64,000 nucleotides of DNA from Naegleria gruberi (Eukaryota), in assembly GCA_000004985.1 (NCBI GenBank), contig GG738845.1, one strand, 5' to 3'. Below are positions 1 to 53,524 of this stretch, piece after piece (the stretch's first letter is position 1; the number at the start of each line of letters is the position of its first letter). The position numbers and the translations under genes were made by a program. The notes under the pieces are model-generated. The model did no database searches and had not been told where the DNA came from. It worked only from the letters and a program-made list of their open reading frames with translations.

Positions 1-274
1 CCAACCCAAACCCAAACCCAAACCCAAACCCAAACCCAAACCCAACCCAAACCCAAACCCAAACCCAAACCCAAAACCCAAACCCAAACCCAAACCCAAA
101 CCCAAACCCAAACCCAAACCCAAACCCAAACCCAAACCCAACCCAAACCCAAACCCAAACCCAAACCCAAACCCAAACCCAAACCCAAACCCAAACCCAA
201 ACCCAAACCCAAACCCAAACCCAAACCCAAACCCAAACCCAAACCCAAACCCAACCCAACCCAACCCAACCCGT
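1..274. repeat. Terminal telomeric array (CCCAAA)n with occasional CCCAA units; C-rich strand on + strand means left chromosome end (G-strand repeat TTTGGG)
   Basis: About 45 tandem hexamers starting at base 1 and ending abruptly at 274; the same unit recurs at 4096-4360. Confidence 0.9.
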
Positions 275-545: not shown

Positions 546-936
546 TTAAGTACATCAATTCAACAATTGAAAATTGAAATATAGTATATTTATTACAAAT
601 TAATAGGACTCTTCTAAATAACTATATCGTTTAAATTAATATTTGTAAAGTTGTCAACACATCATGTCACAGATCATACTCTTTCTCAATGAATAGTTGA
701 CTAAATCAATTTAAAATGACATATAGTTGTTTATACATAGTATTGTATATGTGGTATCAATATCTTTTAAAATTGTCAAGTATTAAGGAAGATCTAAAAA
801 AATAAGGTGGTAAAATTGAATAAGTTAGTAAAATGACCTTGAATCGATCACTCGTCCCTTAATTGACATTCCAACATACAACCACTGAACCAACAGTGTT
901 ATAGCATTATTATCTAGAAATAATTCATACGAATAA

Positions 937-986
937 NNNNNNNNNNNNNNNNNNNNNNNNNNNNNNNNNNNNNNNNNNNNNNNNNN
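937..986. other. Assembly gap (N run, 50 nt)
   Basis: Run of n. Confidence 0.95.
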
Positions 987-2259: not shown

Positions 2260-2399
2260 TTGAGTGAGGAATTGCTGATTATCTCAATAATTAGATAAGA
2301 AACTATACACAATCTATAGCCCACTGGATAGCTGAGATTGTAACCTATTTAATGATGTATATCATTGATTATGTATTTCAGTAATAATAAAGATCCAAT

Positions 2400-2649
2400 G
2401 AGTACGAAACCTAGATATTTGACATGATATCATAGATTATACTCCAACTCACTCATTTTACATATAATAAGTCTAGAATTGATACCACATAGTCTATATA
2501 TCAATTAAATACATCTACAATAGTTTAGAAACATTTCAAACTATTTTCATAAAATTAATCAGTAAATGTTCAATGTCAACACTTAATATATCTTAGTGAA
2601 CACTCCATCTCAATGAAAGTACATCCAATCATCCTATAACTTTACCAGA
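2400..2649. repeat. 3' half of module X, truncated by a gap
   Basis: Matches 9330-9545 and 1330-1537 (…gtcaatagtg/acacttaatat…catcctataactttaccaga). Confidence 0.7.
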
Positions 2650-2699
2650 NNNNNNNNNNNNNNNNNNNNNNNNNNNNNNNNNNNNNNNNNNNNNNNNNN
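2650..2699. other. Assembly gap
   Basis: N run. Confidence 0.95.
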
Positions 2700-4045
2700 T
2701 TCCTTATAATTGTGAAGTAAGAAAAGTTCAGTAAGAATGTAAAAATTTTAATTTGTTGTATAGTATAATACAGTCTTGTCAAAAGGTTGGATACGTCACT
2801 CTTTCGAAAAGAAGCAACGGGTTTGAGCCACTCCACGTTCATTTGAAACAGTTTCAAACAGTTTTTACATCGGGTTGGATAACAACCATTGTTTTAAAGA
2901 TTACAGTTGTGAAAAAATGGCAAATCTCAATCATTTTTGAGAATTTAAGTATACTGTAAAAGACTGTCACCATTTCCATCGAGTTTTGAACATTTTCCAA
3001 TCACTTGTAAAAAATTCTTAATAATTGTGAAATACTCAAAGTTCACTAAGATAGAAATATTTCATAAACTTATAGTTCCTTATTGTAAGGAATTGTCAAA
3101 AGGTCTGAAATCCACTTTCATGAATATAATCAACGGGTTTGAGCCAATCCACGTTCATTTGAAACAATTTCAAGTGGTTTTTACATCGGGTTGGATGACA
3201 ACCACTGTTTTAAAGATTACAGTTGTGAAAAAATGGAAAATCTCAATCATTTTTGAGATTTTGAGTACACTCCAATGGAATGTTACTATCTACATACAGT
3301 TTAGAACATTTTCCATCTACTTGAAAAAATTCCTTAATAATTTTGAAATATTCAAAGTTCAGTAAGATTGCAAACAATTTACTTTGTTGAATAGTATATT
3401 CCAGCCTCATCACATTGCTCGATCAGGAACTTTTTTGAAAAGAAGCAACGGGTTTGAGCCACTTCACGTTCATTTGAAACAATTTCAATTTGTTCCACAA
3501 GCGGGTTGGATGACAATCACTGTTTTAAAGATTACAGTTGTGAAAAATCGATCAATCTCAATCATTTCTTAGAATTTAAGTATACTCCAATGGAAAAATC
3601 GATCAATCTCAATCATTTCTTAGAATTTAAGTATACTCCAATGGAATGTTACCATATACATACAGTTTTGAACATTTTCCAACCACTTGTAAAACTTCCT
3701 TAATAATTGTGAAGTAAGAAAAGTTCAGTAAGAATATAAAAATTTTAATTTGTTGTATAGTATAATACAGTCTCATTCAAAAGGTTGGATAAGTCTCTTT
3801 TTTGAAAAGAAGCAACGGGTTTGAGCAACTCCAAGCTCATTTGAAACATTTAATAGTAGTTGGTACATCGGGTTGGATAACAACCACTGTTTTAAAGATT
3901 ACAGTTGTGAAAAATCGACCAATCTCAATCATTTTTGAGAATTTAAGTGTACTGTAAAGGACTGGTACCATTTCTATCGATTTTGGAACATTTTCCATCT
4001 ACTTGAAAAAATTCCTTACTATGTGAAATATTCAAAGTTCAGTAA
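2700..4045. repeat. Tandem satellite, about 330-bp unit x4, telomere-associated; conserved core aagaagcaacgggtttgagccactccacgttcatttgaaaca…catcgggttggat(a/g)acaacca(c/t)tgttttaaagattacagttgtgaaaaa
   Basis: Four head-to-tail units starting near 2700, 3020, 3350 and 3700; the ORF track shows the same peptide (RSNGFEPLHVHLKQFQ…VLKITVVKK) repeated in 4 ORFs, which is a repeat artefact. Confidence 0.85.
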
Positions 4046-4095
4046 NNNNNNNNNNNNNNNNNNNNNNNNNNNNNNNNNNNNNNNNNNNNNNNNNN
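4046..4095. other. Assembly gap
   Basis: N run. Confidence 0.95.
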
Positions 4096-4360
4096 CAAAC
4101 CCAAACCCAAACCCAAACCCAAACCCAAACCCAAACCCAAACCCAAACCCAAACCCAAACCCAAACCCAAACCCAAACCCAAACCCAAACCCAAACCCAA
4201 ACCCAAACCCAAACCCAAACCCAAACCCAAACCCAAACCCAAACCCAAACCCAAACCCAAACCCAAACCCAACCAAAACCCAAACCCAAACCCAAACCCA
4301 AACCCAAACCCAAACCCAAACCCAAACCCAAACCCAAACCCAAACCCAAACCCAAACCCA
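4096..4360. repeat. Interstitial (internal) telomeric tract (CCCAAA)n, same orientation as the terminal array; degenerate telomere-like remnants continue to about 4400
   Basis: About 44 hexamers with one cccaaccaaaaccc variant; followed by aaacccaacgtttaaaccctagcccaaaa. Confidence 0.9.
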
Positions 4361-4689
4361 ATTCTAAAAATAGAATTCTTCTAAACCCAACGTTTAAACC
4401 CTAGCCCAAAATTATAAACTTCTTCATATATCATTAAATTTTATATCATTCGATAGGAAATTATGAGTAGAACAACGTAGTATATTTAGTTTTACAATTT
4501 ATAAAATATTAACTTTGTAAATAATGTCAGATTAAAATTTGTAAAAAGAAACTATAGGAAGAATGTTAATTTCAAAATCCTTTAATGAGATTATATAGTA
4601 TATATCATCATTAACAACATTCATAATCACTTTGATATAAAATTTCAAAGGTTCAAGTCTGTAGGTATAAAAGTATCGAATGAAAAGGG

Positions 4690-5340
4690 AAGATGTAAGG
4701 TAAAAGAGGTCAACTATAACTTTTGAGTTTCTCATCAAAACATATTGAAACCTGACATGAAAATGTCCCATTTGATGATTAAACATCGAACATCAAATTT
4801 ATTTTAACTTTCATATTTAAAGATTTCTTCCCTCAACCATCACGGTCAACTATGATGAAAAGGATGAACTCTTGAAAAAGGACCACCTATTGAAACTTTA
4901 CCAAAATGATGTACATGATCTATAATGATGTAGAATTCAATTTCATATCATAAAAATCAGAAATGGTATCATGGGAAGGTAAATGTTGATATTTTATGGT
5001 TGACTTTAGAGAAAGACAAGTCAGATCAACTCTATCAAATACATCACTTCAATCAACAAAATATATATGAAAATGCTCCATTCGATGAGTAGAGATAGAA
5101 AATAAAGTTTATTTTCACTTTCATGTTCATGATTTCAACTCTAACATACCAACTTGTCAACTGTGAACATGGATGAAAATCTGGAAAATGACCACTCTAT
5201 GCAACTTCACCACCATGTTCAACATCTCAAATAATGTATATGATTCAGTTTTTAGACGTTTTAGTGAACATTCCATCATTCACTAAGGTAAAGGGTGAAA
5301 TATCAGGGTTGACTTGGTAAGTTAAGGAGGAACTCTTCAA
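4690..5340. repeat. Diverged tandem duplication (module W, two units of about 320 bp, about 75% identical); second copy of the 3' portion at 8527-9000
   Basis: ccacctattgaaactttaccaaaatgatgtacatgatctataatgat… at 4870 and 8527; unit 1 and unit 2 share …gaaaatg(t/c)(c/t)ccatt(t/c)gatga…. Confidence 0.7.
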
Positions 5341-5439
5341 ATAGAGAACTTCATCCTCAATCTACAAAATACATATCAATCGGTTGGAAATCAATAGTAC
5401 ATCTCGTAAATATCATTTATTTTATGTTTTGAAATCTCT

Positions 5440-5610
5440 CCATGACCTCTTTAGGTCAATTAAGACAATTAAGGATGATACAATAGGAAAAATTACTAAT
5501 CTCAAAATAAATGATAATATCGTGTTCTACATCTCAAATAAAGTGAACTTTCATCAAATTATATATTTTCATTTCAAGAAATGCATCCAGTGGATAGTAC
5601 ATGGTGATTG
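5440..5610. repeat. 5' part of module X, truncated by a gap
   Basis: Matches 987-1150 and 9020-9180. Confidence 0.75.
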
Positions 5611-5660
5611 NNNNNNNNNNNNNNNNNNNNNNNNNNNNNNNNNNNNNNNNNNNNNNNNNN
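5611..5660. other. Assembly gap
   Basis: N run. Confidence 0.95.
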
Positions 5661-6975
5661 ATATGAATACACTCCTCTTGATAAGGAGAACAATCTGATA
5701 AAGTTTCACATTGATGGCTCAGTATCTTCAAGTCAACTAAGGAACATATAAGGAAATTAATTAGGAAGAATCTTAATTTCAAAATTAAATTTTACCATCA
5801 TATCAAAATCATTGAATAATGAATTATTGATACAAGAATCATATGTTCAATTGTTATATTCATGTCAATAATCAGTGAAGGTACCATTTCATCAACCTTA
5901 GTGTTCACATCTCAATACAGTAAATGTGACTTAAACTTGAAATACAACCTATTTAGATGATATAATGATGATTCTACATAGTAACATGCATGTGAAATTG
6001 AATGTTGACACTTTTCATATTGTTATATTTATAGAGATGGTATCCAACAGTCAGTTCACAATATTAAATATTGAAACTCATTCTGTATGGTATATTTGGT
6101 GTATAGAGTGGTTTTTTATTGATTATAATCAGTTTGAAATAATTTGATGAAATTGACACTGTCTAGTCACCATTACATAACAAATAGACCATAGTTTACA
6201 TTCCCTCTAAGTCATTTCAACGATTTATTGATTAATTCCAACACCAGTATGTTTTTCATACATTGTAGTACAGTTTATATTTCAAGAGTGATTTCTGTGA
6301 AGATTATTATAATCGTAATAGCATGCAATACCAATAAAACTCAATAGAAGAGTTAATTCTTCTCATTTTCAAATAGATTATTCAATATAGAACACATCTA
6401 GATAGTTTCCAGATCATAAAAGTCAAGCTACTATATATGGTCTTTGATTAAATTTAAAAATAGACTGCCGTTAATTACTGGAATATTAATTCAAAGCTTG
6501 TTGATCAAGCTGTTGATTGAAATCAAACCGATTATTGAATATTGATCATTGAATTGGAGAATAATCACTCTTGATAATGTTAGTTATTCATATTGCATGC
6601 AAATCAACCTGATTCAATCTACAAAGGTTGGTAGTTGCACCACTTCGTGGCGAAACTACCCATCCACGATCAATCAACAGTTGATTCACTTTCATTCAAC
6701 TCAATTTGACCGTTATAATCAATAAATCAATGAAATGTTTCTTTATTAGCAATACCTGTTCAATCCAATGCGTGGCTTCACGTCCCAAACATTTGACTTC
6801 TCAAAGTCCATAATTCAAAAGTTAGTACTGACCTGACCTTTAAATATCTGTCAATACAAGAAATGAAAACATCAAAATTACATCATTAATAGATTATAAG
6901 AAATATAATCAATGATATAAATCTTCACTAAGTAATCTCTTAATTAACCCAAATAAATCAACTCTGAATCCCCTT
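5661..6975. repeat. Subtelomeric module Z (about 1.3 kb), copy 1; contains hairpin GGTAGTT-GCACCAC-TTC-GTGGCG-AAACTACC (6632-6662) and a T-element at its 3' end (6775-6975)
   Basis: Collinear, about 90% identical to 9700-11035. Confidence 0.85.
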
Positions 6976-7267
6976 ATTTCCTTATTCTCAAGTAGTTTCA
7001 TCTCTAGAAGAATCATGGCTCTCCACAGTGGTGGACTTTCCTCCGTAAACATCTCTTGTTCTCCTGATAACTTTTTTGATAACTATTACCAACACGTCTA
7101 TTTGCCAAATTTTCAGTTCATGACCAAACATTGATAGAAATGGAATACGAACAATTTGTAAAAAATAAATAAATCTAAATACTCACAGGTTGTAGACCTA
7201 GCCAATCGTCTCCAAAAATTATTTGATGAATTTGATGATGGTGATGGTGACAAAAGTTTACAAAAAA

Positions 7268-7374
7268 ATGACATCACAACCTATCACCGCACCTCTTGAT
7301 CAACTTCCCGATGAGTTGTTACTTTATATTGTTACCTTCTCCACCACAATCCTATTGACATCATTAAATTCTCC
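7268..7374 (+). pseudogene. N-terminal fragment of an F-box protein (MTSQPITAPLDQLPDELLLYIVTFSTTILL…), truncated by a scaffold gap; embedded in subtelomeric repeats
   Basis: aaaaaaATG context; LPDELLLYIV matches the F-box consensus LPxEIL..I; local GC higher than surrounding repeats. Confidence 0.4.
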
Positions 7375-7424
7375 NNNNNNNNNNNNNNNNNNNNNNNNNN
7401 NNNNNNNNNNNNNNNNNNNNNNNN
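7375..7424. other. Assembly gap
   Basis: N run. Confidence 0.95.
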
Positions 7425-7805
7425 ATTGTCAAGGAGAATGGATGGAAATCTGAAGGGACCAGAAACAACTCCATTTTCACTGAAATTAATACCATGATAT
7501 GTAGACACTCTAATTAGCATATGATATCAATTTCATTAATATTGGTTCAGTAGATATTGAGTTGTCAACTCTATCATTTTACTATAGACCTTTGACATAA
7601 AATCAAAGATTATGCTCCAACTCGCTCATTTTATATGAAGTTAGTCTAGAATTGATAACACATATTATATACATCATTTATATACATCTACATACGTTTT
7701 GAAACAATTCATGAAACTTACATTCAGTCAATCAGTAAATGTTCAATGTCAAGAGTGATTATATTCAAGTGTACGCTCTATCTCAGCGAAAGTACATCCA
7801 ACCAT
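7425..7805. repeat. Module X (3' 380 bp), copy
   Basis: Matches 1158-1537. Confidence 0.8.
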
Positions 7806-8526
7806 CATGTAACTTTACTAGATACATTTAATCACACTGATATACATCTGGAATCAATTTTAATGTTTTAGAATTGAATTCAGTATGATAATAATAACAA
7901 TCTGTCAAATTGTCACATTTCAACATATAGAATATACTCCATCTCATTCATTTTACAAAATATAATACAAGTATCAAATATGAATACACTCCTCTTGATA
8001 AGGAGAACAATCTGATAAAGTTTCACATTGATGGCTCAGTATCTTACAGTCAACCAATATACCTTAGAATATAGTTTACATTCCATCTCAGTCATTTCAA
8101 AGAGTTATTGATCAATTCCAACACCAATATGTTACTCACACATTATAGTACAATTCATGTTTCAAGAGTGATTTCTATGATAAAGTTGATGGAAGTGAGT
8201 GCCAAATGGCACTTTCACTTCCAATATAGTAGTAAGCTTTGTTAATCCTTTCGATTCTGAGCCATTTTCACATCAACTTGAATCTATTTTTAACTTTTCC
8301 GCGCGTTTTTCGGTTTGATCAACCGGCAAAAATAATTTTGATCAAGTGATTTTATTACCACTAGCCACCATCATAACTTGATATATATAAATATTTAACA
8401 ATTTCACATCAGCCGTATATTGTGCCCCATTACCATCACCATCTTTTGACATCATTTGTGATATATATTGTTAATGTATTTAAGGAGAAAAGCTTAATAA
8501 ATAGGGGTTGACATGGGATCCAAACC
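7806..8526. repeat. Module Y, copy 2 (palindrome at 8187-8219)
   Basis: About 95% identity to 1538-2259. Confidence 0.85.
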
Positions 8527-9000
8527 CACCTATTAAAACTTTACCAAAATGATGTACATGATCTATAATGATATAGAATTCAATTTCATGTCCTAAAAAT
8601 CAGAAATGGTATCATGAGAAGGTAAATGTTGATATTTTATGGTTGACTTAAAGGAAAGACAAGTCAGACCAACTCTATCAAATACATCACTTCAACCAAC
8701 AATATATACATGAAAATGCTTCACTCTACGAGTAGAGATAGAAAATCAAGTTTATTTTCACTTTCATGTTCATGATTTCAACTCTATCATACCAACTAGT
8801 CAACTGTGTACATGGATGAAAATCTGGAAAATGACCACTCTATGAAACATTACCATCATGTTCAACATCTCAAATACTGTATATGGTTCAAATTTCAGAC
8901 ATTTTGGTGAATATTCTATCTTTCAGTAAGGTAAAGGGTGAAATATCAAGGTTGACTTGGAAGCAGTAGGAAATCTTGAATATAGAGAACCAAATCCTCA
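8527..9000. repeat. Module W copy (matches 4870-5340)
   Basis: Alignment by eye, about 90% identity. Confidence 0.7.
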
Positions 9001-9019
9001 ATCAACAAAATACACAATT

Positions 9020-9545
9020 AAGATAATAAGGATGATACCATAGGAAAAATTACCAATCTCAAAATAAATGATAATATCGTGTTCCACATCTCAAATAAAG
9101 TGGACTTTCATCAAATTATATATTTTCATTTCAAGAAATGCATTCAGTAGATAGTACATGGGGATATTTCAAGAGAATGGATGAAATCTGAAAGGTACAG
9201 AAACAACTCCATTTTCACTGAAATTGATATCATGATATGTAGACACTTTAATTAGCATATGGTATCAATTTCATAAATATTGGTTCAGTAGATGTCGAGA
9301 TGTCAACTCTATCACTATACTATAGAACTTTGACATGATATCATAGATTATGCTCCAACTCGCTCATTATACGTACAATTAATCTAGAGTTGATACCAGA
9401 TAGAGTATACATCAATTAAGTACACTGTATACAGTTTGGAAACAATTCGTATTACTTTCAAAGAGTGAGTCAGTTAATGTTCAATGTCAATAGTGAATAT
9501 ATCCAAGTGTACACTCTATCTCAGTGAAAGTATATCCAACCATCA
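9020..9545. repeat. Module X, full copy 2
   Basis: Matches 987-1537. Confidence 0.8.
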
Positions 9546-11035
9546 TGTAACTTTACCAGATATGTTTAATCACACTATTGTATATATGGTATCAATTTTA
9601 GTCTGTTGGAATTGAATTCAGTATGATAATAATAACAATCTGTCAAATTGTCACATTTCAACATATAGAATATATACCATCTCAGTCAGTTTACAAAATA
9701 TAATACAAGTATCAAATATGAATACACTTCCCTTCATGAGGAGAACAATCTGAGAAAGTTTCATATTCATGGCTCAATACCTTCAAGTCAACTAAGGAAC
9801 ATCTAAGGTAATCAATGGGGAAGTATCTTAATTTCAAAATTAAATTTTACCATCATATCATAATCATTGAACAATGAATTATTTATGCAACAATAATATA
9901 TTCAATTGTCATATTCATGTCAGTAATCAGTGAAGGTGACACTTCTTCAACCTTAGTATACACATCTCAATATGTAGACTGTCAATTCCACTGAAACTTG
10001 AAATATTACCTATCTAGATGATATAATGATGACTCTCCATTGTAACATGCATGTGAAATTGAATGTTGACACTTTTCATCTTGTTATATTTATAGAGTTG
10101 GTATCCAACAGAGTCAGTTCACAATATTAAATATTGAAACTTATTCTATATGACATGTTTGATGTATGGAACGGGTTTTTATTGATTGTAATCAGTTTGA
10201 AATAATTTGATGAAATTGACACTGTCTAGTCACCATTACATGACAAATAGACCATAGTTTACATTCCATCTCAGTCATTTTAACGAGTTATTGATTAATT
10301 CCACCATTATGTTTCTCATACATTGTAGTACAGTTTATATTTCAAGAGTGATTTCTGTGTAGATTATTATAATCGTAATAGCATGCAATACCAATAAAAC
10401 TCAATAGAAGAGTTAATTCATCTCATTTTCAAATAGATTATTCAATATAGAACACATCTAGATAGTTTCCATATCATAAAAGTCAAGCTACTATATATGG
10501 TCTTTGATTAAATTTAAAAATAGACTGCCATTGATTACTGGAATATTCAAAGCTTGATGAGCAAGCTATTGATTGAAATCAAACCGATTATTGAATATTG
10601 ATCATTGAATTGGTGAATAATCACTCTTGATAATGCTATATTTCAGATTGCATGCAAATCAACCTGATTCAATCTACAAAGGATGGTAGTTGCACCACTT
10701 CGTGGCGAAACTACCTGAATCAACATCAGATTCACTTCCATTCAACTCAATTTGACCGTTATAATCAATAAATCAATGAAATGTTCCTTTATTAGCAATA
10801 CCTATTCAATCTTACGAGTAGATTCACGTCCCAAACATTTGACTTCTCAAAGTCCATATTTCAAAAGTTGATACTGACCTGACCTTTATATATCTATCAA
10901 TATAAGAAATGAAAACATCAAATTTACATCATTAATAGATCGTAAGAAATATAATCAATGATATGAATCTTCACTAAGTAATCTCTTAAATAACCCAAAT
11001 AAATCAACTCTGAATCCTAACCAAACCCAACCCTT
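9546..11035. repeat. Module Y 5' part (9546-9790) fused to module Z copy 2 (9790-11035), ending in a T-element
   Basis: Collinear with 275-545 plus 5661-6975; hairpin copy at 10683-10713. Confidence 0.8.
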
Positions 11036-11263
11036 CAATCTAATGAGTAGATTCACGTCCCAAACATTTGACTTCTTAAAGTCCATAATTCAAAAGTTGA
11101 TACTGACCTGACCTTTATATATCTATCAATACAAGAAATGAAAACATCAAATTTACATCATTGATAGATTATAAGAAATATAATCAATGATATAAATCTT
11201 CACTAAGTAATCTCTTAAATAACCCAAATAAATCAACTCTGAATCCTAACAAAACCTTAAATA
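10808..11263. repeat. Telomere-proximal T-element (about 230 bp) in tandem duplicate (10808-11033, 11034-11263); unit ends in degenerate telomeric …ctgaatcctaaccaaacccaaccc
   Basis: gattcacgtcccaaacatttgacttct…aaataaatcaactctgaatcc repeated twice; also at 6775-6975 and 17385-17495. Confidence 0.8.
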
Positions 11264-11331
11264 ACCAAAAAAAATCAACTCGGAGTCATAATCTTTGAAT
11301 TAAAATTTGAAGAGCAGTATAACAATTTTAT

Positions 11332-14300
11332 TTAAATACTCAACAATTCCTTCTCATTAAGCTTGTTGGAATTACCAGGAGTTTCTTTGCGTTTCTTAGT
11401 AAAGACGAAAACAGCACCAACAATGACAGCAATCACTGCCACCAAAGGAATAATCAAAAGTAATAAAGCAAGATAGTTCATGTTAGGTTTAGGAACAACA
11501 ATAGGTGGAGGAATAACAGTATCACCAGAAGTAGAAGTAGGTGGTTGAGGTTTTGTTGTTTCAGCTTCAGCAACAACATAGGAACCAGAGTCTCTGATTT
11601 GGATTGTTACAAATGTGGAATCATTACTAACAAGTGTACAAGTTGGTGTAATCACATAATCTTCATTTTTCAAGGTATAACATGCTATTTCATTAGTCAA
11701 AACAGATCTGGTTTGAGAAATCTTTTCAATCTTGATTGAAGCAATGGTTACATTTTCATTCAAGAAGGACATTATATTATTGTTTACAACAATACCAAAA
11801 TCAACAACCTTACTGATTGATTTGAGTGTTGAATTCTTCAATGTGTAAATCTTGTTGACTAATTTGACACTTTCTAAACTTTCCAAAATTTTCATTGAAC
11901 TGAATACATCCTTCATTTCAAAACGAGAGACACCATTTTGAGAGATATCTTCAGATAATGTACCAAGAGTCGAAATACTGACAAGTCTTGCATATGTAGT
12001 GGTACCAACTCCAGAGCTTCTAACAGCAGGCATGTCAGCCACTGCACTCTTGAGTTCAACACTTACAAGATTTGCTTTGATTTGGTCAATCTTGTTCAAA
12101 TCTTGAATAGTAAATGTTGAAATGGCTCTCTTGGATACGGAACTAGAAACATATTCTTCTAGCGATGATGCAGACTTCTTAGAGTTTTCAATATCATCAG
12201 GTTTCATGCTAATAGTTTCAGAGGAAGAAACACCCATAACCGTTGTAAAGAATTGATCAATAATCTTTGAAACAGTATCATCTGGGAAGTTTCGAACATT
12301 ATCACTCACTGATGAAATAATTGAAACCTTAGTTGATGCTGATTCTGATGATTCTGAAACAATTTGACTTTGTTGATCTTCTTGTTCAAAGAATTTATCA
12401 ATGAAAGCTTTACCAGCTTGTTGTAAAGCAAGTTTTTCTTCAGCACTAGCTGGAGTAACAGATGACACAACACTAAGAACGGCCGATAAAGAAGAAACAG
12501 AAATAGAACCTTTTTGTGCAGTTTCTAAAAGTCCAAGAGCTTGTCCAGATGATGGAAGTGATGTTGTCACTTCACTAATAGTTTCAGAAGCAGCACCCAA
12601 GGAATCATAAACCACAACCTTAATTTGCAAGTTACCAGCAGGCAAAGAAGTAGCAATAGATCTCTTTTCAGATCTTTCAGAAAGAACCTTCCAAATAGTT
12701 GCATCAGAAGTCTTGTACATGAATTTGTAAGAAAGTGGAAGTTGAGTATCGTACCAACCATTACCACACTTGATTTGGAATTCATCTTGTAAAGCAATGC
12801 CAGATTTTGGATAAACTTCTAAAATACCAATTGTTGGTGGTGAGTTTACAGTGAAAGTAAATGTTGCGTCACCAGATCTCAAACCATCAACAACCTTAAC
12901 ATTGATAGAATAAGTGGCTCCAGGAACAAGTAAACTCTTTGGTATGTTAATGTACTTGTTAGATGTTGAAATGGAGCTCAATTCTAAATCAGTTGATGAC
13001 CAAGTAAATACTCTAGATGTTGAAAGTGTATCAGCTGATGATGATTGTAAAATCAAGTCACTAGATGGATCCATAGATGTGGAATCAGAACCAACTGGTG
13101 CAATAATTGAAACTCTTATAACACTGCTCTTTGGTTGATCAAGAACAGTAACCTTAACAGTTGCTGAGCTTCTTCTGGATCCTTTGGTGAAAATAGTAGT
13201 GAACAAATAAACACCAGGAAGCATGGAGCTCTTAAATGACAAGAATGTTTGATCAATATTATTTTCATTGGATTTGAATCCTGAACAGTCAACTCCTGTA
13301 TCAATATTGGAACACAATAATTGGACATTACCTGAAGCATCTGACGGATTACTTGGATCATTCTTGTTGACAACGAATGAAACATCTGTTTCAAAGGACT
13401 GAGACATGTCACGTATATTAAATCCTACTACCAAAGGTAATGCTTTGGCAGATACTGTAAATGGAATTGAAACAGAGGCAGCTCCAGTTTGAGAAACAGT
13501 CAAAGTTAAATAATATTCACCAGGTTCTGTAATCTTGGTGTAAGTATCGCTGAAAACAAGCATTTCCTTCATTTGAAGGATAGGAACAGTTATGGTTGTT
13601 TTGGAATCCCAACTGTATACATAAGAAATTTCACCACTTCCGATATAACATGATGGGAATGTTACAAGAGGAGTTATTGTTGAAGTCTTACCAATAACTA
13701 GTGTACTTTGAAGACCTTCCTTAATGGTTACAGTTGGAGCTGTCAAGTCAGTGACTTCAAAAGAAGCAAAAGCAACAGTTGACCTTTGAGAGAAAGTACT
13801 TGAAACAGTAACTTTGACTGAATAAGAACCAACACTCAAATCTTTAGCACTAATCTTTACACCAGATATATCTTGTTGTTGATCAAGAATTTTTTGTAAG
13901 GTTGAAACGTCATCAGCTGAAGGAGATATTTCAACAGCCCAAATAAATTTCAATGCTCTACGGTCCTTGGAAATAGATCCAGATGCATCCAAATAAATTG
14001 AACCACAAGCTTTAGAAATAATAGACTTATCAGCAGTCAAAGTTGCTGTTGGTGGTATTGGCACAAAATCTTTTGTTTCTACGGTAACTGCTACAGTTTC
14101 TGGTGATGAGAAATACTTCTTGAATATTAATTTGTCATTGACCTTAATAGATGCAGATGGACCAATAGAGATTGTCATAGTCATGGTTTCACTATTAATT
14201 AAACAACCAGCACCTTCTCCAATTGAGCTCACATCAGTAATCAATTCTGAACAAGTAAACTTCTTTTTAAGTGATGAGTAAACGACACCAGAAATAGAAT

Positions 14301-16982
14301 CGCCATTTTGAGAGAAACCAAAAGAGTTTTGATCAATCTTAAAGTCACATTTTTCACCATACCAACCCTCAACACACTTTTCACAGTTTGCACCCATTGA
14401 GTTTCCAATACAAGTACAAGAACCATCAGAATTACATGTACCTCTACTGGAACAATTTTGAGCAGAAGTACATTGAACTTGACAATTGCTTCCAACAAAT
14501 CCTTCTTTACAATTTCTACAATATTCACCAACCCAATTACCAGTGCAAGAACACTTGAAATCTGATGTACAAACACCATGACCGTTACATGTTCCTTCAT
14601 CAGAACAAATTCTACCAGTACAATTGACTCCACTATAAGCAAGTGTACAAACTGAACAGAATTTGGATGGCTCATAATTTCCTTTACAAACACAAGTGTC
14701 AACTGAAACACAAGAACCAACTCCTGAGCAAACATCTCTATTACTTCTATCAATACCATTACATTTGAAGTTTTGACACAAGTCTCCATCATAACCTTCG
14801 GAACATTTACAAGTTGGAACACCTTCAATAGAAACACATGAGCCTCTACCTCCACAAACTCCCTTATCACTTGCCTTAATACCATTACAGATAGGAACGT
14901 CACATTTAGAACCTGTAAAACCTTCCTTACATGATGAACATGATGAACCAGCAAAATTATTCTTACAATAACATCCACTTGATGTACATGTTCCTTGGAA
15001 AGAACAACCTCCCTCGCTCTCTTGTTTACCATTACAAATTGGAATGTTACAACTGCTTCCAGTAAAACCAGTCTTACATTTACAATTATTGACTCCTACA
15101 CAATCACCATTTCCATTACAAACACTTGATGAATTTCCATCAATACCAAAACATAAATTGAATTGACAATTCAAGCCAGAAAATCCAGTCCGACAAGAAC
15201 ATGAATTTTCATCCATGCAAAGTCCTTTACCAGAACAAACAGCTGCATCAGTATAGAGTTTACCATAGCAACTAGTTGAAGGTGGTAAGTATTTACCATA
15301 GAAACATTCACTTTCAGGTTTTCCTTCACAATTACTTGTTGAGGTTGAGTTTACAATACCGTTAGTCCAAATGAAAGCACAAGTGTTCTTACAAAGTGAT
15401 TTTTCGTATGGAGTGGATTTATCGGAAAAGCAAGGTTTGATATCTTGATAACAAATATAGTTAGCAATAGCTTTACGACAAGTGTCATCACAAGTTTTTC
15501 CACCATTAATAATAGTGTCAATCATTGATTGAGCTTTCTTTTCTGCCTCACTATCAATACTCTTCAATAAGTTAGTAATTTCTGTTAAAGCAGATTGTGG
15601 ACTAGAATAATGTGCTGTTGGGGAAAAGGCGGTATTCAGTACCTTGTAGTAAACACTTGATTTACAATAAGTTAATGAACCACTTGGAACCTCAATACAT
15701 TGAGTTGGTGGAGTATAAACTGAACAGTCTTCTCCAGAATATCCACTTTCACACACACGTAAACAAATTCCATTGCTATTCTTTGAGTAACTTGATGCAC
15801 ATTCAGAGCATGGTGATTGAGCATTTGTTGTTACGTATTCAGTGAAACATTTACATTGTGTGGCATCAGATGTAGCAACATTAATAAATTCACAAACTCC
15901 CTTACCACAACCATTTACACATACAGGAACTTTAGCTACACATGTACCCTCGATATTCTCAAATCCAAGTTTACAGACACAGTTGCTTCCCTCTTTGATA
16001 AAACCTAAAGATTCACTGCAAGCGCAGGCACTACCAGTATTATTAAATCCACTCAAAGTATCACAAATACAATCAGAGCCACTTGAAATATAACCAGAAG
16101 CTACATCACAGACACATGTAGATCCTTTTAGAACAGATCCAATTGGACATGAAGAACATGGTAGTGATGCAACTTTAGTCTCAAAACCATTCTTACAAAC
16201 ACAATCTGAAGTTGTTGCAGTAATAAATTCACAAACACCATTGGAACCACAATCATATTGACATTTTGGAGCATTTGTTTGGACACAAGTTCCATTGGAT
16301 GAAGTAACTAATCCAGCTGATTCATCACAAACACATTTGCCATTTGATTCAACATATCCTAAAATATCATTACAAGAACTACATGGACCTGATTGAGATT
16401 TGTATCCTAAATCACAATCACAAAAAGTAACTGATGATTCATCATCACTATATTTACAAACGCCATTGCCACATCCATTATTACAAACAGGCTGACTACG
16501 AACACATTTGTTATTTTGGAATGCATAGTTGGCACTTTCATCACAAATACAAATGGCACTTCCTGTGGTATTAACACAAGCTCCACGAGGATTACAATCA
16601 AGAGTACATGGGTTTGAAGGGGTGTTGTTTTCATTATCACACAATTTTCCACTATATCCTAAATTACAAATACATTCAGCAATACCAGTTGCATTTTCAC
16701 ATTTACCATGAACACATGATAATGTACATGGATTAGTAAAGTTGGAATTACCATTATTGGAATCAAAATTTTGACATAATTCTCCACTATATCCAGGTTC
16801 ACATGTACATTTAGCAATACCATTTGTATTGTCGCATTTACCATGTACACATGATAATTTGCATGAATTGGTAACATTTACAATATTGCTACAGTTCCAT
16901 CCAATAGGATTGCAGAATTGACCTGCAGTACAATCAGAATCTGAGTAACATTCGTATCTACAAATAGAAACAGGGAGAACCA
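11332..16982 (-). CDS. Giant type-I membrane glycoprotein, 3'-terminal exon (stop at 11332): N-terminal array of EGF/laminin-EGF-like Cys repeats, central run of PKD/REJ-like Ig-fold repeats, Ser/Thr-rich stalk, single C-terminal TM (LALLLLIIPLVAVIAVIVGAVFVF) and short basic tail. 5' exon(s) with signal peptide lost in gap 17000-17049
   Basis: Open frame continues upstream of the ORF-track start (16644 is a TTG) to a pyrimidine-rich acceptor …ttctatttgtag at about 16960-16972; about 60 Cys repeats CxCxxG(F/Y)xGxxC. Confidence 0.8.
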
Positions 16983-16999
16983 GTTACAAGTGAAAATGA

Positions 17000-17049
17000 N
17001 NNNNNNNNNNNNNNNNNNNNNNNNNNNNNNNNNNNNNNNNNNNNNNNNN
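17000..17049. other. Assembly gap
   Basis: N run. Confidence 0.95.
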
Positions 17050-17384
17050 TCCATATCAAATCATCAGACAAGTTGGCATACTCGATACCTATGGGATTGG
17101 GATTGAGCCTGGGCCTACTAAGTTTCGGCCATTTCTCTTATTTGACATTTGCTCCAGCAACCTCTATATTTATGACCCTGTTTATTTCAACATTGAAAAG
17201 AGAGAAAAAGGAAGCAATTTTGCTAAAGTGCTATTAAAAATTTAAATAATAACATGCATCACGATTACAATTATATCTGTGGCTAATCTTGTAAATAAAT
17301 GGTAAAAATATTTTACTGCCCTAGTAGAGACAAGTGGACAATTTTCTTTACATTAATCCATCAGTTCCAGTTGATACGACCTGA

Positions 17385-17495
17385 CCTTTAAATATCTATC
17401 AAATTTACATCATTAATAGATCATAAAAATACAATCAATGATAATCAATCTTCACAAAGTAATAACCAAAAAAGTCAACTCGAACCAAACCTTTT
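17385..17495. repeat. Displaced short copy of the subtelomeric T-element, lying between the surface-protein gene and actin
   Basis: cctgacctttaaatatctatcaaatttacatcattaatagatc…aatcttcac(a/t)aagtaat…aatcaactc…aaccaaacc matches 10860-11035. Confidence 0.65.
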
Positions 17496-17693
17496 GAGGT
17501 GTTCATTTTTTTGACCATTAAATATTTTCTAGCTTCCCAATCTATAACTACTCGACAATTTAAAAAGATTCAAACATGCGCCCACCAAACAAACCATGGA
17601 GATTCCTAAAATCAAGTCTTTTTTTAAAAATTCATTTAAATTACATATTTATTTTTACAGAGCTCGACAGTTGACTATACAAAGTGCCATCAT

Positions 17694-18711
17694 TTAGAAA
17701 CACTTTCTGTGAACGATACCTGGACCGGCATCCTCATATTCTTCCTTTGTGATCCACATTTGTTGGAAAGTGGACAATGAAGCCAAGATGGAACCACCAA
17801 TCCAGACAGAGTACTTTCTTTCTGGTGGAGCAACAACCTTAATCTTCATTGAGGCAGGAGCCATAGCAGTCAATTCCTTGGTCATTCTTTCAGCAATACC
17901 TTCGAACATAGTAGTACCACCAGACAAGACAACGTTACCATACAAATCCTTTCTGATATCAATATCACATTTACCAATTGAATTGAAAGTAGTTTCATGA
18001 ACACCAGCAGCTTCCATACCAATGAAGTTTGGTTGGAACAAAACTTCTGGACATCTGAATCTTTCGTTACCAACAGTAATAACATTACCGTCTGGCAATT
18101 CGTATGACTTTTCAACAGATGATGATTCAGCAGCAACCTTCATTTCAGCTTCAAAGTCCAAAGCAATATAACAGAGCTTTTCCTTAATATCTCTGACAAT
18201 TTCTCTTTCAGCAGTAGTATTGAATGAGTAACCTCTTTCCATCAAAATCTTCATCAAATAATCAGTCAAGTCACGACCAGCCAAATCCAATCTCAAAATG
18301 GCGTGTGGCAAAGCATAACCTTCATAAATTGGAACAGTGTGAGAAACACCATCACCAGAGTCCAAAACAATACCAGTAGTTCTACCAGAAGCATACAAGG
18401 ACAAGACAGCTTGAATAGCAACATACATAGCTGGAACTGAGAAAGTTTCAAACATAATTTGGGTCATCTTTTCTCTATTGGCCTTTGGATTCAAAGGAGC
18501 TTCAGTCAACAAGACTGGGTGTTCTTCTGGAGCAACTCTCAATTCATTGTAGAAAGTGTGATGCCAGATCTTTTCCATATCATCCCAATTGGTAACAATA
18601 CCGTGTTCAATTGGATACTTCAAAGTTAAGATACCTCTCTTTGATTGAGCTTCATCACCAACATAGGCATCCTTGTTACCCATACCAACCATGATTGATT
18701 TTTGCTTTGGT
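17694..18711 (-). CDS. ACT: Actin, partial (residues about 38-375); N-terminus lost in gap 18712-18761
   Basis: [84 protein letters not shown]…IVHRKCF; over 85% identical to canonical actins. Confidence 0.95.
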
Positions 18712-18761
18712 NNNNNNNNNNNNNNNNNNNNNNNNNNNNNNNNNNNNNNNNNNNNNNNNNN
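18712..18761. other. Assembly gap
   Basis: N run. Confidence 0.95.
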
Positions 18762-19589: not shown

Positions 19590-19970
19590 TTACCTCTTGT
19601 ATCGTAAAGACCTGAGAGACGAGGTCTACAACCAGAAAGTTTCGGTTCAGCGTTTAAGAGTTATGTGTTGACACTAAGTGGTTGGTTAGACTGAGCCTGC
19701 CTGTGGTAGGCAGAGAGGTATTTCCTGTTAATAGTGAAGCTCGCATTATGACGGTTGTACCACACTGAGTTCTTGTAGCAATTTTCCAAATAAATAGCTA
19801 GTGATTTGTAGATTTCTTGAGCCACATTCTTAGGTGTTCGTTTGCGCTTAGACCAGTTAAGCCAGTCATTATGGGAGCAACGACCATCAAACTCTATCCA
19901 AGTTGAGAGGATTCTGAGATATCAGTAGGAAAACGAATCTTGTTAAGGCTAAATTTCTAGTCCCAATCTT
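19590..19970. other. GC-elevated (about 45% GC) ORF-free island with several stem-loops (gacct-gagagacg-aggtc; ctgcct-gtggt-aggcag); candidate structured ncRNA or degenerate transposable-element relic
   Basis: Composition contrast with flanking DNA of about 25% GC; no ORF of 60 aa or more in any frame; hairpins visible by eye. Confidence 0.3.
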
Positions 19971-20019: not shown

Positions 20020-20736
20020 TTACTTATTGCATGTTAATTTATGCACCTTCCAATGCTTGCTTTGGCATTCTTTAGAGCAATAAACAACTGCTTGACATGC
20101 TCCACACTTCTTTTTAGAGTTAGGTTTGCCACAATTTACACAATCATAATTTTTCTTTTCCACAGAATTAGTAATGACGGTAGTATTTTCTGTATTTTCT
20201 TTTTCCTTTGGTTGAATTGTTTGTTGATTAATTTGTAGTTCTTGTTTAGTTTCAATATCTGGCTTTAGTGTTTTCAATAAATTAATGAAAAGTTCATTGT
20301 TTGGATCTTTAGCAAGTGCTACTTCACAAACTTGAATTGCTTCATTAACCCTTTCTAAACTCTGTAATGTTAATGCTTTTCTATAATAACCTTTAGAAAA
20401 ATTCTCATCTACCAAAATAGATTCATTTGCAGATATTAATGCTCTTTCATAATTTTTTAAATTAAAGAAGCAAGCTGACATATTGGAATATAAAATAGGT
20501 TTGATATTTTGAGTACAATCTGGATGTTTCAACGCTTTGTTATAAAAATCTAATGCCTTCATTGATGCACCTTTTTTAAATTCTTCATTTCCCTTATTTT
20601 TTAATTCTTCAGGTGTTTCTAGTGGAATATTTGATTTTTCATTTGAAAGTAAATCAATAATTTCTTTGTCAGTAATATTTAGTGATATTGGTAATATTGA
20701 AACAGAACCATCAATTCTTGATTCAATATATTGCAT
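20020..20736 (-). CDS. TPR-repeat protein with C-terminal MYND-type zinc finger
   Basis: ATG at 20736-20734; …CVNCGKPNSKKKCGACQAVVYCSKECQSKHWKVHKLTC matches the MYND consensus C-x2-C-x7-10-C-x2-C-x5-7-C-x3-C-x3-H-x3-C; three TPR-like helices (ALDFYNKALK…, YERALISANESI…, YYRKALTLQSL…). Confidence 0.8.
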   Translation of the reverse strand: MQYIESRIDGSVSILPISLNITDKEIIDLLSNEKSNIPLETPEELKNKGNEEFKKGASMKALDFYNKALKHPDCTQNIKPILYSNMSACFFNLKNYERALISANESILVDENFSKGYYRKALTLQSLERVNEAIQVCEVALAKDPNNELFINLLKTLKPDIETKQELQINQQTIQPKEKENTENTTVITNSVEKKNYDCVNCGKPNSKKKCGACQAVVYCSKECQSKHWKVHKLTCNK

Positions 20737-22636
20737 GAATGATTTTTTTAAATGTTGATCTGTTCATAACTATATAAAATTTGTTTAGTAATTTTAATCC
20801 AAATAAAATAATTGCATCAACACATTTTTCAAATGAAACATCATTAGAATGAGGTACATTAGTCATATAACATCTTTGACATTTTTCCAATCCTTTAACA
20901 CATTCATATACACTTGTATTAAAAAGTTCTTTTACACAAGTTTGTAAAATATCATTTGTAAGACTATTCTTTTTGAGTAGATATGATAAAATTTCAACTA
21001 GAGGTTTCCAATTACCTTGATTAATTGCCATTATTAAAGGACTTTGCTTAATTTTTACAGTTTTCAAAGGAGTACCTGTTTTTTCACAAAAATATTTTAC
21101 AATATCTGATCCATAATCATAATAACATGCGAAATGAAAAGGAGTAGGTTCACTTTTCGTATAAATTGTAGCTCCTTGATCAACTAATAATTTTACAGCA
21201 TCAAGATTTTTAGCACGAACAGCACAATGTAATAAATATAAATTTACATCAGCTCTAGAATCAGGAAAATATAATTTTGAATATAATTTAAAAAAATTAT
21301 CAAAAGGTTTCGAATTATCAAAATATTTTCTTCCAAGCTTTTTTTCTTCATTATTTAAAGTTAAATGAGAATTAATTATATTTGCATTCTTAATTGCCCA
21401 TTCTAAAGCTTCTGGATTTGATAACCATAAATCTAAATGATCTGAAATATATTGTGCTTGTGAACAAATAGATGATTCATCACTCGAAAATACTAATGAA
21501 TTTGGTATTCTTACATTTGCAAGTTTTCTAATACCTAATAAATATTCATATACTAATGGTGAATTAAGTGCTGCAACAGCAATTGATCCATAAAGTTCAG
21601 AATCTTTTTCTCTTCCACTTTCAATAAATTCTACATGTTCTTCAACTGAATTATCTTTTGATGATTTCTTTTTTATCATAAAATCACAAAGTGCAAAACT
21701 CCAAAGTAAAACCTTAGAAGATGCTAAACTTAATAAATCTTTGTTTTTTTTCATAAAATCATATGCTTCTTTCCATTTTCCTAATTTCATTAAACATTCA
21801 GGAATATTATATTGGAAATTACAATAACTAACCATAGATCCATGAATAATTGCATCAAGTTTTACAGCTCTATTATATGAATCTAAGGCTTCTTGATATT
21901 TACCCATTTTTCTTAAAATATTTGCTTCTCCAATAATTGATCTAAAATATTGTCTTAATTCATGTTTAGTCCAATTATCTTTTTCATTAAATTTTAAATT
22001 TGAAGAATAATATTCATCTTTTTTTTCTTGTCCTTCTCTAAAATATTTTAAAGCTTGTTCATAATTATTAGATTTATATAATCCTAATATATTAAAAGCT
22101 TCAATACAATTAGGTGATATTTTAAGTGATTCATCAGCAATTTTTAAAATATTATCTAATTCTTTAATATTAATAGAATTTAAATCATCATCAAAAAATA
22201 ATTTAGTTTTAGAATAAGCTTCAAGAGATTTCTTTGATGCTTGAAAATTTTCCTTTGTTTTAAACATATTTTGTCTTTGTTCGGAATCATGAATAGGTGA
22301 TCCAGCCATTTCATTATTCTTTTTAAAATCATTAATAAGAAATTCTACATCTCTACTATCAGGATTTTTATAATATTGTTCAATTAAATAAATTTTCTTT
22401 TTCTTTTCTGTTTCAAATTTTAAACCTGATGTATTTTCGTGTTTTTCATAAATATTACATAAATCTAATATTTTAAGTATTTTATCAAGTTGAATTTCAT
22501 CTAAACTATGTAATTTACTTGATGCTCCGAATATTTTAGAAAATGTATCCGTATATTTTTCAAATAAACAAGATAATGATGGATTATTGCAACTATTTTT
22601 TAAACCTAGCATTGAAGCTAGATTGAATGAAGACAT
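20723..22636 (-). CDS. Hypothetical 637-aa protein with TPR-like and ankyrin-like repeats; its stop codon overlaps the start of the MYND gene by 14 nt in a different frame
   Basis: Long uninterrupted ORF; ankyrin-like LLHCAVRAKNLDAVKLLVDQGATIY; divergent promoter shared with the cyclase gene. Confidence 0.6.
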   Translation of the reverse strand: MSSFNLASMLGLKNSCNNPSLSCLFEKYTDTFSKIFGASSKLHSLDEIQLDKILKILDLCNIYEKHENTSGLKFETEKKKKIYLIEQYYKNPDSRDVEFLINDFKKNNEMAGSPIHDSEQRQNMFKTKENFQASKKSLEAYSKTKLFFDDDLNSINIKELDNILKIADESLKISPNCIEAFNILGLYKSNNYEQALKYFREGQEKKDEYYSSNLKFNEKDNWTKHELRQYFRSIIGEANILRKMGKYQEALDSYNRAVKLDAIIHGSMVSYCNFQYNIPECLMKLGKWKEAYDFMKKNKDLLSLASSKVLLWSFALCDFMIKKKSSKDNSVEEHVEFIESGREKDSELYGSIAVAALNSPLVYEYLLGIRKLANVRIPNSLVFSSDESSICSQAQYISDHLDLWLSNPEALEWAIKNANIINSHLTLNNEEKKLGRKYFDNSKPFDNFFKLYSKLYFPDSRADVNLYLLHCAVRAKNLDAVKLLVDQGATIYTKSEPTPFHFACYYDYGSDIVKYFCEKTGTPLKTVKIKQSPLIMAINQGNWKPLVEILSYLLKKNSLTNDILQTCVKELFNTSVYECVKGLEKCQRCYMTNVPHSNDVSFEKCVDAIILFGLKLLNKFYIVMNRSTFKKIIHAIY

Positions 22637-53471: not shown

Positions 53472-53524
53472 AATGGCGCCAAATAAAACTACAATCATTT
53501 TTTTTCAAAGCTCAAAAAAAAACA

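What the first reader, a model, noticed from the sequence alone, without database searches (positions are those of the whole stretch)
17050..17690. Subtelomeric T-element copy and a GC-rich patch immediately upstream of the giant surface-protein gene, separated from the subtelomere by the whole gene
A truncated copy of the approximately 230-bp telomere-proximal T-element, ending …aaccaaacc, lies at 17385-17495. This is 6 kb internal to the subtelomere boundary and between the 5' end of the EGF/PKD surface-protein gene and actin. The region 17050-17140 is also unusually GC-rich (gggattgggattgagcctgggcctactaagtttcggcc). The surface-protein gene is therefore bracketed by subtelomeric sequence on both sides. 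That is the configuration expected if the gene was transposed or converted into place from another chromosome end. It is the classic arrangement for subtelomeric variant-surface or adhesin gene families. Its first exon(s) are missing in a gap, so copy identity cannot be assessed here.
Basis: partly seen in the sequence, partly recalled or inferred. Interest (0 to 1): 0.5.

Follow-up and report, generated by a model that had tools for sequence, protein, structure and literature searches.

The report
Old subtelomeric repeat relic upstream of gene
A 136-base decayed fragment of this amoeba's chromosome-end repeat really does sit upstream of a large membrane-protein gene, so the gene lies inside the chromosome-end zone, but nothing indicates a variant-surface-gene switching system.

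Summary
The window is one end of the 1.56-Mb scaffold of Naegleria gruberi NEG-M, starting with its (CCCAAA)n telomere. The repeat copy is real. Window 17357-17492 aligns to positions 49-218 of a 229-bp unit that is tandemly duplicated at 10805-11262 and present again at 6759-6971. The alignment score is 137, against 22.6 +/- 3.7 for shuffles. The copy ends in AACCAAACC, a 9-mer found only twice in 64 kb, both times at the 3' end of a unit. The unit is the inner end of a 1.3-kb subtelomeric block, not telomere-adjacent DNA.

The solo copy is sharply bounded and 5'-truncated. It is more diverged (87-90%) than the three subtelomeric copies are from each other (92-95%), so it is an old relic. I read it as a fossil junction from an earlier chromosome-end rearrangement.

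The bracketed gene is an EGF/REJ type-I membrane protein. It belongs to an old family of at least 13 N. gruberi members, at most 56% identical, on many scaffolds. Three relatives sampled in sister species lie 73 kb or more from a contig end. That does not fit a variant-surface cassette.

The GC patch is real but modest and unexplained. The relic sits on a 1.66-kb contig with gaps on both sides.

The parts
1..272 (+). Terminal telomere tract, (CCCAAA)n, C-rich strand. It abuts the middle of a repeated block.
   Evidence: TRF period 6, 45 copies. TTTGGG is the published candidate telomere of N. gruberi (PMC3622300). Junction alignment A2.
9716..11017 (+). 1.3-kb non-coding subtelomeric block. 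A second copy lies at 5661-6971 (90.5% identical). Its last ~210 bp are the 'T' unit.
   Evidence: Self-blastn. No ORF of 70 aa or more other than telomere or gap artefacts.
6759..6971 (+). T-unit copy at the end of the distal block copy, followed by an F-box-like ORF fragment.
   Evidence: 94% identical to 11034-11246. Alignment A1.
10805..11033 (+). T unit 1, ending in the telomere-like seed AACCAAACCCAACCC (11019-11033).
   Evidence: TRF. This is the only telomere-like 12-mer with 11/12 or more matches outside the two telomere tracts.
11034..11283 (+). T unit 2 plus a ~25-bp sub-repeat (11257-11283), directly 3' of the EGF/REJ gene stop codon.
   Evidence: 95.5% identical to unit 1. The sub-repeat matches the tail of the solo copy (sequence reading).
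11332..16960 (-). Main exon of the EGF/REJ type-I membrane-protein gene (EFC50603 / XP_002683347, named 'basal body protein' by the source). A 3' splice site lies at ~16960. The signal-peptide exon is not found.
   Evidence: ORF. Pfam REJ 6.4e-40 plus EGF domains. P0008 at 97% identity.
17000..17049 (.). Assembly gap (50 N, nominal size) inside the gene's first intron or first exon.
17093..17130 (+). GC-rich patch (58% GC), starting GGGATTGGGATT. Unexplained.
   Evidence: Composition ranks. Unique in the window. No RNA family and no significant fold. Telomere-likeness 18/24, reached in 6 of 100 shuffles.
17357..17492 (+). Solo, 5'-truncated, internally deleted relic of the T unit (unit positions 49-218).
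17483..17491 (+). Telomere-like seed AACCAAACC at the 3' end of the solo copy, in the same orientation as the terminal tract.
   Evidence: Two matches in the window, both at the 3' end of a T unit.
17467..17506 (-). Annotated first coding exon of the public gene model (MNTSKGLVRVDFF). It lies mostly inside the relic and has no signal peptide, so it is probably spurious.
   Evidence: P0008 sequence mapped onto the sequence. Paralogues with complete N-termini start with signal peptides.
17694..18711 (-). Actin gene (C-terminal 338 codons plus stop). The N-terminal ~36 codons are lost in the 18712-18761 gap.
   Evidence: ORF. 100% identical to N. gruberi actin P0069.

Best explanation
Window 17357-17492 is a non-coding fossil of the inner (centromere-side) end of the N. 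gruberi subtelomeric repeat block, including the short telomere-like seed that closes each unit. It most likely marks an older junction between subtelomere and chromosome body next to actin.

Proposed history (inferred, not shown). A later chromosome-end rearrangement broke inside that repeat near unit position 49. It joined on a terminal piece carrying the EGF/REJ gene together with that piece's own subtelomere. The simplest form is a one-junction terminal translocation or break-induced copying from another end. The gene therefore now sits between two same-orientation copies of the repeat, and the working subtelomere boundary lies at about 17.49 kb, not 11.3 kb.

The relic itself has no demonstrated function. 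It lies in the spacer between the actin 3' end and the gene's promoter region, and it has been mis-annotated as the gene's first coding exon.

Shown: the homology, its sharp limits, the shared seed, the greater age of the solo copy, and the family structure of the gene. Inferred: the order and type of the rearrangements.
For: Homology is far above chance, with sharp limits at both ends.

All four copies lose similarity to one another at about the same 3' point (the second tandem unit carries an extra ~25-bp sub-repeat) and continue into four different sequences. These are the F-box fragment, another unit, the gene's 3' flank and the actin 3' flank. Three of the four carry a C-strand telomere-like seed there, in the orientation of the terminal tract.

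Telomere addition inside repeats is seen directly at this end. The terminal tract abuts the middle of a block whose three internal copies continue a further ~500 bp, at a CCAACC microhomology.

The solo copy is an outgroup: 87-90% identical to the others, which are 92-95% identical to each other.

The relic is the only repeat shared between 1-11.3 kb and the remaining 53 kb.
Against: Only one chromosome end could be examined, so the genome-wide distribution of the unit is unknown.

The seed in the solo copy is only 9 nt long.

The relic lies on a 1,662-bp contig bounded by gaps on both sides. That contig carries a member of a multi-copy actin family, so its adjacency to the gene rests on scaffolding.

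No junction signature can be read left of 17357 beyond the loss of homology.

Synteny with N. lovaniensis is not conserved here, so an outgroup test of 'gene arrived later' failed.
Confidence: 0.55

Rival explanations
1. The repeat pair is the working homology of a subtelomeric gene-conversion or transposition cassette for a variant surface-protein family.
For: Same-orientation repeat copies flank the first gene inside the subtelomere. The gene belongs to a multigene family of large EGF/REJ membrane proteins. One paralogue sits on a 13.5-kb orphan scaffold and two are annotated 'partial'.
Against: The closest paralogue is only 50-56% identical. The upstream copy is short (136 bp), deleted, and older than the other copies. 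Sampled relatives in N. lovaniensis and N. fowleri lie 73 kb or more from a contig end, two of them between the same ABCE1-type and Pex16 genes. The organism is a free-living amoeboflagellate with no known antigenic variation (general knowledge).
Confidence: 0.06
2. The unit is a short mobile element, for example a non-autonomous retroposon that targets telomere-like repeats or a MITE. The 17.4-kb copy would then be an independent, 5'-truncated insertion unrelated to the gene.
For: The solo copy has a constant 3' end with variable 5' truncation. The unit has an A-rich 3' tail (AACCAAAAAA). Telomere-like bases sit at the 3' junction of three copies.
Against: No terminal inverted repeats and no target-site duplication around the solo copy (and direct reading). 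Two of the four copies are simply the end of a larger 1.3-kb segmental duplication, and one is a tandem copy. There are no copies in the other 46 kb of gene-dense sequence. No coding capacity.
Confidence: 0.15
3. Scaffolding artefact. The 1.66-kb contig (17050-18711) with the relic and an actin copy belongs at another locus or chromosome end, so the bracketing does not exist in the cell.
For: There are gaps on both sides of a very short contig. The actin protein is encoded identically by at least 4 N. gruberi genes. The first 7.4 kb of the scaffold is visibly a chain of small contigs, including a second full telomere tract right after a gap.
Against: About 640 bp of the contig is unique sequence suitable for mate-pair placement. 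Another actin copy differs by 4% at the DNA level, so copies are distinguishable. The intron 3' end at 16961-16999 and the actin orientation fit the placement.
Confidence: 0.12
4. Remnant of a tandem [T-gene] array made by unequal crossing-over between T units and later reduced to one gene copy with a decayed T on the far side.
For: The flanking repeats are in direct orientation, and the unit is demonstrably prone to tandem duplication. The tail of the solo copy matches the sub-repeat found only next to the gene-adjacent unit.
Against: There is no second gene copy or gene fragment in the window. The core of the solo copy is not closer to the gene-adjacent unit than to the others.
Confidence: 0.1

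Closest known systems
Yeast Y'/X subtelomeric elements separated by interstitial TG1-3 tracts (established knowledge, not tested here)
   Same: A repeated block at the chromosome end. Tandem copies are separated by a short telomere-like tract in the orientation of the terminal telomere. The distal element is constant and is joined to variable proximal sequence.
   Different: No helicase ORF or any other ORF. The unit is 0.23 kb and the block 1.3 kb, against 5-7 kb for Y'. The seeds are only 9-21 nt. Only one chromosome end was seen.
Primate subtelomeric duplicon patchworks with degenerate (TTAGGG)n islands at block boundaries (established knowledge)
   Same: A mosaic of blocks duplicated within and between ends, with degenerate internal telomere-like seeds marking old end-joining or translocation events. 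Ordinary genes are embedded between blocks.
   Different: The scale is kilobases here, not tens of kilobases. Exchange between chromosomes is not demonstrated here.
Trypanosoma brucei VSG cassettes (upstream 70-bp repeats plus downstream homology)
   Same: A telomere-near surface-type gene with repeat sequence upstream and downstream.
   Different: Here the same element sits on both sides, and the upstream copy is a single decayed 136-bp fragment. Family members are at most 56% identical. Sampled relatives in sister species lie 73 kb or more from a contig end.
PKD1 / sea-urchin REJ-type receptors (for the bracketed gene)
   Same: REJ domain (Pfam 137 bits), many EGF repeats, and a single C-terminal membrane span (and the sequence).
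   Different: No GPS/PLAT or 11-TM channel-partner part was detected. The N-terminus is unknown.

Membership tests
Subtelomeric variant-surface / adhesin gene cassette | Family members concentrated at chromosome ends | tested here: inconclusive
   N. gruberi paralogues lie on many different scaffolds, but their positions cannot be read with these tools. Three relatives in N. lovaniensis and N. fowleri lie 73 kb to more than 110 kb from contig ends.
Subtelomeric variant-surface / adhesin gene cassette | Recent exchange: near-identical copies or mosaic genes | tested here: not met
   The best paralogue is 50% identical over the whole protein and 56% in the REJ half. The other N. gruberi members are 28-52% identical.
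Subtelomeric variant-surface / adhesin gene cassette | Shared repeat homology on both sides of the gene | tested here: met
   T units at 10805-11283 and the relic at 17357-17492, in the same orientation. The upstream copy is short and old.
Telomere-associated repeat bounded by interstitial telomere tracts (Y'-like) | Repeated, partly tandem, within the subtelomere | tested here: met
Telomere-associated repeat bounded by interstitial telomere tracts (Y'-like) | Telomere-like tract at the proximal junction, in the orientation of the terminal tract | tested here: met
   11019-11033 and 17483-17491 on the + strand. A degenerate CCTAACAAAACC lies at 11241-11252. The 6971 copy has none.
Telomere-associated repeat bounded by interstitial telomere tracts (Y'-like) | Present at many chromosome ends | not testable with these tools
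   The N. gruberi genome outside the window is not held. Two metagenome scans with the core sequence found nothing.
Telomere-associated repeat bounded by interstitial telomere tracts (Y'-like) | Encodes a helicase ORF (Y' proper) | tested here: not met
   No real ORF of 70 aa or more in 1-11330.
Transposable element (MITE / SINE-like) | Terminal inverted repeats or target-site duplication | tested here: not met
   No such repeats around 17357-17492 (direct reading).
Transposable element (MITE / SINE-like) | Dispersed copies outside subtelomeres | tested here: inconclusive
   None in 17.7-64 kb.
REJ-domain EGF membrane proteins | REJ domain above the Pfam cut-off | tested here: met
   PF02010, 137.5 bits against a cut-off of 25.
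REJ-domain EGF membrane proteins | N-terminal signal peptide | tested here: inconclusive
   The exon is missing (gap). The annotated start MNTSKGLVRVDFF is not a signal peptide, whereas paralogues P0133, P0137, P0140 and P0141 have one.

The most novel reading that the evidence does not exclude
Naegleria chromosome ends may be built by repeated stacking of a non-coding, Y'-like block. In this reading the block's inner end carries a telomere seed, each addition uses a healed or shortened telomere as the recombination site, and ordinary genes such as this EGF/REJ gene are trapped between successive layers. A variant of this reading is that the unit is a telomere-repeat-targeting retroposon. The relic at 17.4 kb would then be one dated layer of that process.
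Probability: 0.15. Interest if true: 0.45.

Novelty: new member of a known kind. Interest (0 to 1): 0.2.

Why it matters
No description of N. gruberi subtelomeres was found in the papers searched; one survey records TTTGGG as the candidate telomere repeat. This end shows three things: a mosaic of non-coding blocks, a telomere added inside a block, and short internal telomere seeds at block boundaries. That pattern is familiar from yeast and primates.

The practical consequences are small but concrete:
- The public gene model for EFC50603 starts in repeat-derived DNA and lacks its signal peptide.
- The boundary of the unstable end region should be drawn at about 17.5 kb.
- The first 7 kb of the scaffold probably mixes contigs from several chromosome ends.

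None of this opens a new biological question.

Tried and rejected
- Fetching other N. gruberi loci by exact protein look-up failed for four proteins. That genome is not indexed.
- Two metagenome scans with conserved cores of the unit found nothing.
- A near-identical N. gruberi strain exists in an ENA metagenome (99.83% over 3.5 kb). No contig for the EGF/REJ gene or the relic could be reached, and the only retrievable contig for this exact actin protein (P0069) was a 1.2-kb transcript-like contig of another gene copy.
- Synteny tests through N. lovaniensis actin loci and the orthologue of the neighbouring TPR/MYND gene showed no conserved neighbourhood, so they say nothing about when the gene arrived.
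- tRNA and Rfam scans of the region and of the whole window found nothing.
- The GC patch as a structured RNA: z = 0.30. As an inverted degenerate telomere: 18/24 matches, reached in 6 of 100 shuffles, so not significant. As a protein domain: the 54-aa plus-strand ORF has no Pfam hit.
- The word-indexed protein search wrongly suggested a two-member family. The exhaustive search corrected this.
- Looking for residual homology outside 17357-17492 found none.
- The unit has no match in the N. lovaniensis or N. fowleri loci fetched.

Full report
Source. Exact matches of several window ORFs to GenBank proteins identify the window as Naegleria gruberi strain NEG-M, at one end of its 1,555,553-bp scaffold. 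The sequence starts with 272 bp of (CCCAAA)n. Its complement, TTTGGG, is the published candidate telomere repeat of this species (PMC3622300). The assembly has seven 50-N gaps in the first 19 kb.

The observation. blastn of 17050-17690 against the whole window finds one family of significant, collinear, same-strand hits. They lie at 10866-10982, 11095-11211 and 6820-6936 (67 bp at 91%, E=1e-19; 35 bp at 94%, E=1e-8). Tandem Repeats Finder shows that 10805-11256 is two copies of a 229-bp unit. A gapped local alignment places the solo copy at 17357-17492. It covers unit positions 49-218, with 21-bp and 9-bp internal deletions. The score is 137 against 22.6 +/- 3.7 for shuffles. No similarity continues to the left or to the right. 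The copy ends in AACCAAACC (17483-17491). That 9-mer occurs only twice in 64 kb, and the other occurrence is 11019-11027, at the 3' end of the first tandem unit.

What the unit is. A self-comparison of the window shows that the first 11.3 kb is a mosaic of non-coding blocks, each present two to four times. None carries a real ORF. The 229-bp unit is the last ~210 bp of a 1.3-kb block (5661-6971 ~ 9716-11017, 90.5% identical), plus one extra tandem copy. It is therefore the centromere-side end of the subtelomeric repeat domain. It is not telomere-adjacent DNA. The sequence that abuts the telomere (273-535) is a different repeat.

All four copies of the unit lose similarity to one another at about the same 3' point (the second tandem unit carries an extra ~25-bp sub-repeat). 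They continue into four unrelated sequences: an F-box-like fragment, the second tandem unit, the 3' flank of the EGF/REJ gene, and the 3' flank of actin. Three of the four junctions carry a short C-strand telomere-like motif in the orientation of the terminal tract. AACCAAACCCAACCC at 11019-11033 is the only strong telomere-like 12-mer outside the two long tracts.

Telomere addition inside these repeats is directly visible. The terminal tract abuts the middle of a block whose three internal copies continue a further ~500 bp. The join is at a CCAACC microhomology.

Age of the solo copy. Over the shared core, the three subtelomeric copies are 92-95% identical to each other. The solo copy is 87-90% identical to each of them and has no clear nearest relative. 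It is therefore older than the duplications that made the present subtelomere. It is also the only repeat shared between 1-11.3 kb and the remaining 53 kb.

The bracketed gene. The gene at 11332-16960 (minus strand) encodes EGF repeats, a REJ domain (Pfam 137 bits) and one C-terminal membrane span. A 3' splice site at ~16960 is followed by the gap. The public model (EFC50603, 'basal body protein') takes its first exon, MNTSKGLVRVDFF, from 17467-17506, mostly inside the relic. That peptide is not a signal peptide. Paralogues with complete N-termini start with a signal peptide followed directly by the cysteine-rich motif. The annotated exon is therefore probably spurious. The real ~20-25-codon exon is probably in or beside the gap, and an ATG at 17054 reads into the gap.

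Family test. A word-indexed search found only one paralogue. An exhaustive HMMER search with the REJ half found 20 representatives below 1e-30. Look-ups show at least 13 N. gruberi members on many scaffolds, at 28-56% identity, plus homologues in N. lovaniensis and N. fowleri. Three of those relatives could be located. One N. lovaniensis gene is 73 kb from a contig end. A N. lovaniensis / N. fowleri pair sits more than 110 kb from contig ends, between the same ABCE1-type (RLI) and Pex16 genes in both species. The family is old, genus-wide, and not intrinsically subtelomeric. It also does not fit a recently exchanging variant-surface family.

GC patch. 17050-17140 is 44% GC and 17093-17130 is 58% GC. 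These are the top 2% of 91-bp windows and one of three such 38-mers, respectively. The patch is unique in the window. It matches no RNA family or tRNA and folds no better than shuffles. It resembles the G-strand telomere hexamer at a level reached in 6 of 100 shuffles. It lies 40-75 bp upstream of the ATG that reads into the gap. It could be 5' UTR or core promoter of the gene, but that is only a guess.

Mechanism. The pattern is a constant distal repeat end, then a short telomere seed, then variable proximal sequence. It is repeated in layers and includes one old, truncated layer next to actin. From established knowledge, yeast Y'-ITS-X ends and primate subtelomeric duplicons show the same pattern, where it results from telomere healing and from terminal translocation or break-induced copying between ends. 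The simplest history here has two steps. First, an earlier end had the repeat joined through a seed next to actin. Second, a later break inside that repeat, at unit position ~49, was joined to a terminal fragment carrying the EGF/REJ gene and its own subtelomere. These steps are inferred, not shown.

Caveats. Only one chromosome end could be examined. The relic, the patch and most of actin lie on a 1,662-bp contig flanked by gaps, and the actin protein is encoded identically by at least four genes. Against misplacement, about 640 bp of the contig is unique, and another actin copy differs by 4% in DNA. A synteny test with N. lovaniensis was uninformative, because the neighbourhood is not conserved.

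Verdict. This is a real but ordinary feature. It is an old relic of a subtelomeric repeat, and it places the first gene of the scaffold inside the subtelomeric domain. It is not evidence for a variant-surface cassette.

Noticed in passing
window 265-290 versus 1535-1560, 7800-7825 and 9540-9565: The terminal telomere tract abuts the middle of a repeated block. Three internal copies of that block continue a further ~500 bp upstream. The join is at a CCAACC microhomology, which looks like a truncated end healed by new telomere addition.
   Followed up: partly
window 4046-4361: A second full (CCCAAA)44 tract starts immediately after a 50-N gap, 4 kb inside the scaffold. Either it is a large interstitial telomere, or contigs from other chromosome ends were chained onto this scaffold. 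The latter seems more likely given four gaps in the first 5.7 kb.
   Followed up: no
window 2700-4045: A tandem array with periods of 316 and 366 bp (75-88% identical), including a perfect 51-bp duplication at 3542-3646. It is a separate subtelomeric satellite.
   Followed up: no
window 7223-7375: An F-box-like ORF start (MTSQPITAPLDQLPDELLLYIV...) lies about 250 bp after the distal T-unit copy and runs into a gap. It may be a gene fragment embedded between subtelomeric blocks.
   Followed up: no
window 19600-19950: A GC-rich (44% or more) stretch lies upstream of actin. It has no long ORF, no Rfam match, no Pfam match on its translated segments, and no significant fold. It is unexplained.
   Followed up: partly
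window 20020-22636 (minus strand): Two ORFs overlap by 14 bp: a 637-aa TPR/ankyrin ORF and a 238-aa TPR/MYND ORF. They correspond to a single 993-aa MYND protein in N. lovaniensis (P0283). The N. gruberi annotation (EFC50606) probably splits one gene, or there is a frameshift or short intron at ~20730.
   Followed up: partly
window ~11950-12080 (minus strand), inside the EGF/REJ gene: The public model removes 44 residues (VSVELKSAVADMPAVRSS...FEMK) as an intron. The ORF is open there, and the stretch is conserved in paralogue P0009. The predicted intron is probably wrong.
   Followed up: partly
window 17073-17237 (+): A 54-aa ORF overlaps the GC patch (MAYSIPMGLGLSLGLLSFGHFSYLTFAPATSIFMTLFISTLKREKK...). 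It has two hydrophobic stretches and no Pfam hit. It is probably chance.
   Followed up: partly
L001 (ENA ERZ929261, run ERR1078381) versus window 52574-56118: A public metagenome assembly contains a 3.5-kb contig 99.83% identical to this N. gruberi scaffold. A near-identical strain is therefore present in that sample.
   Followed up: partly
The word-indexed protein search returned only one N. gruberi paralogue of an EGF-rich query. The exhaustive search returned a dozen at up to 52% identity. Repeat-rich queries appear to saturate the candidate list.
   Followed up: yes
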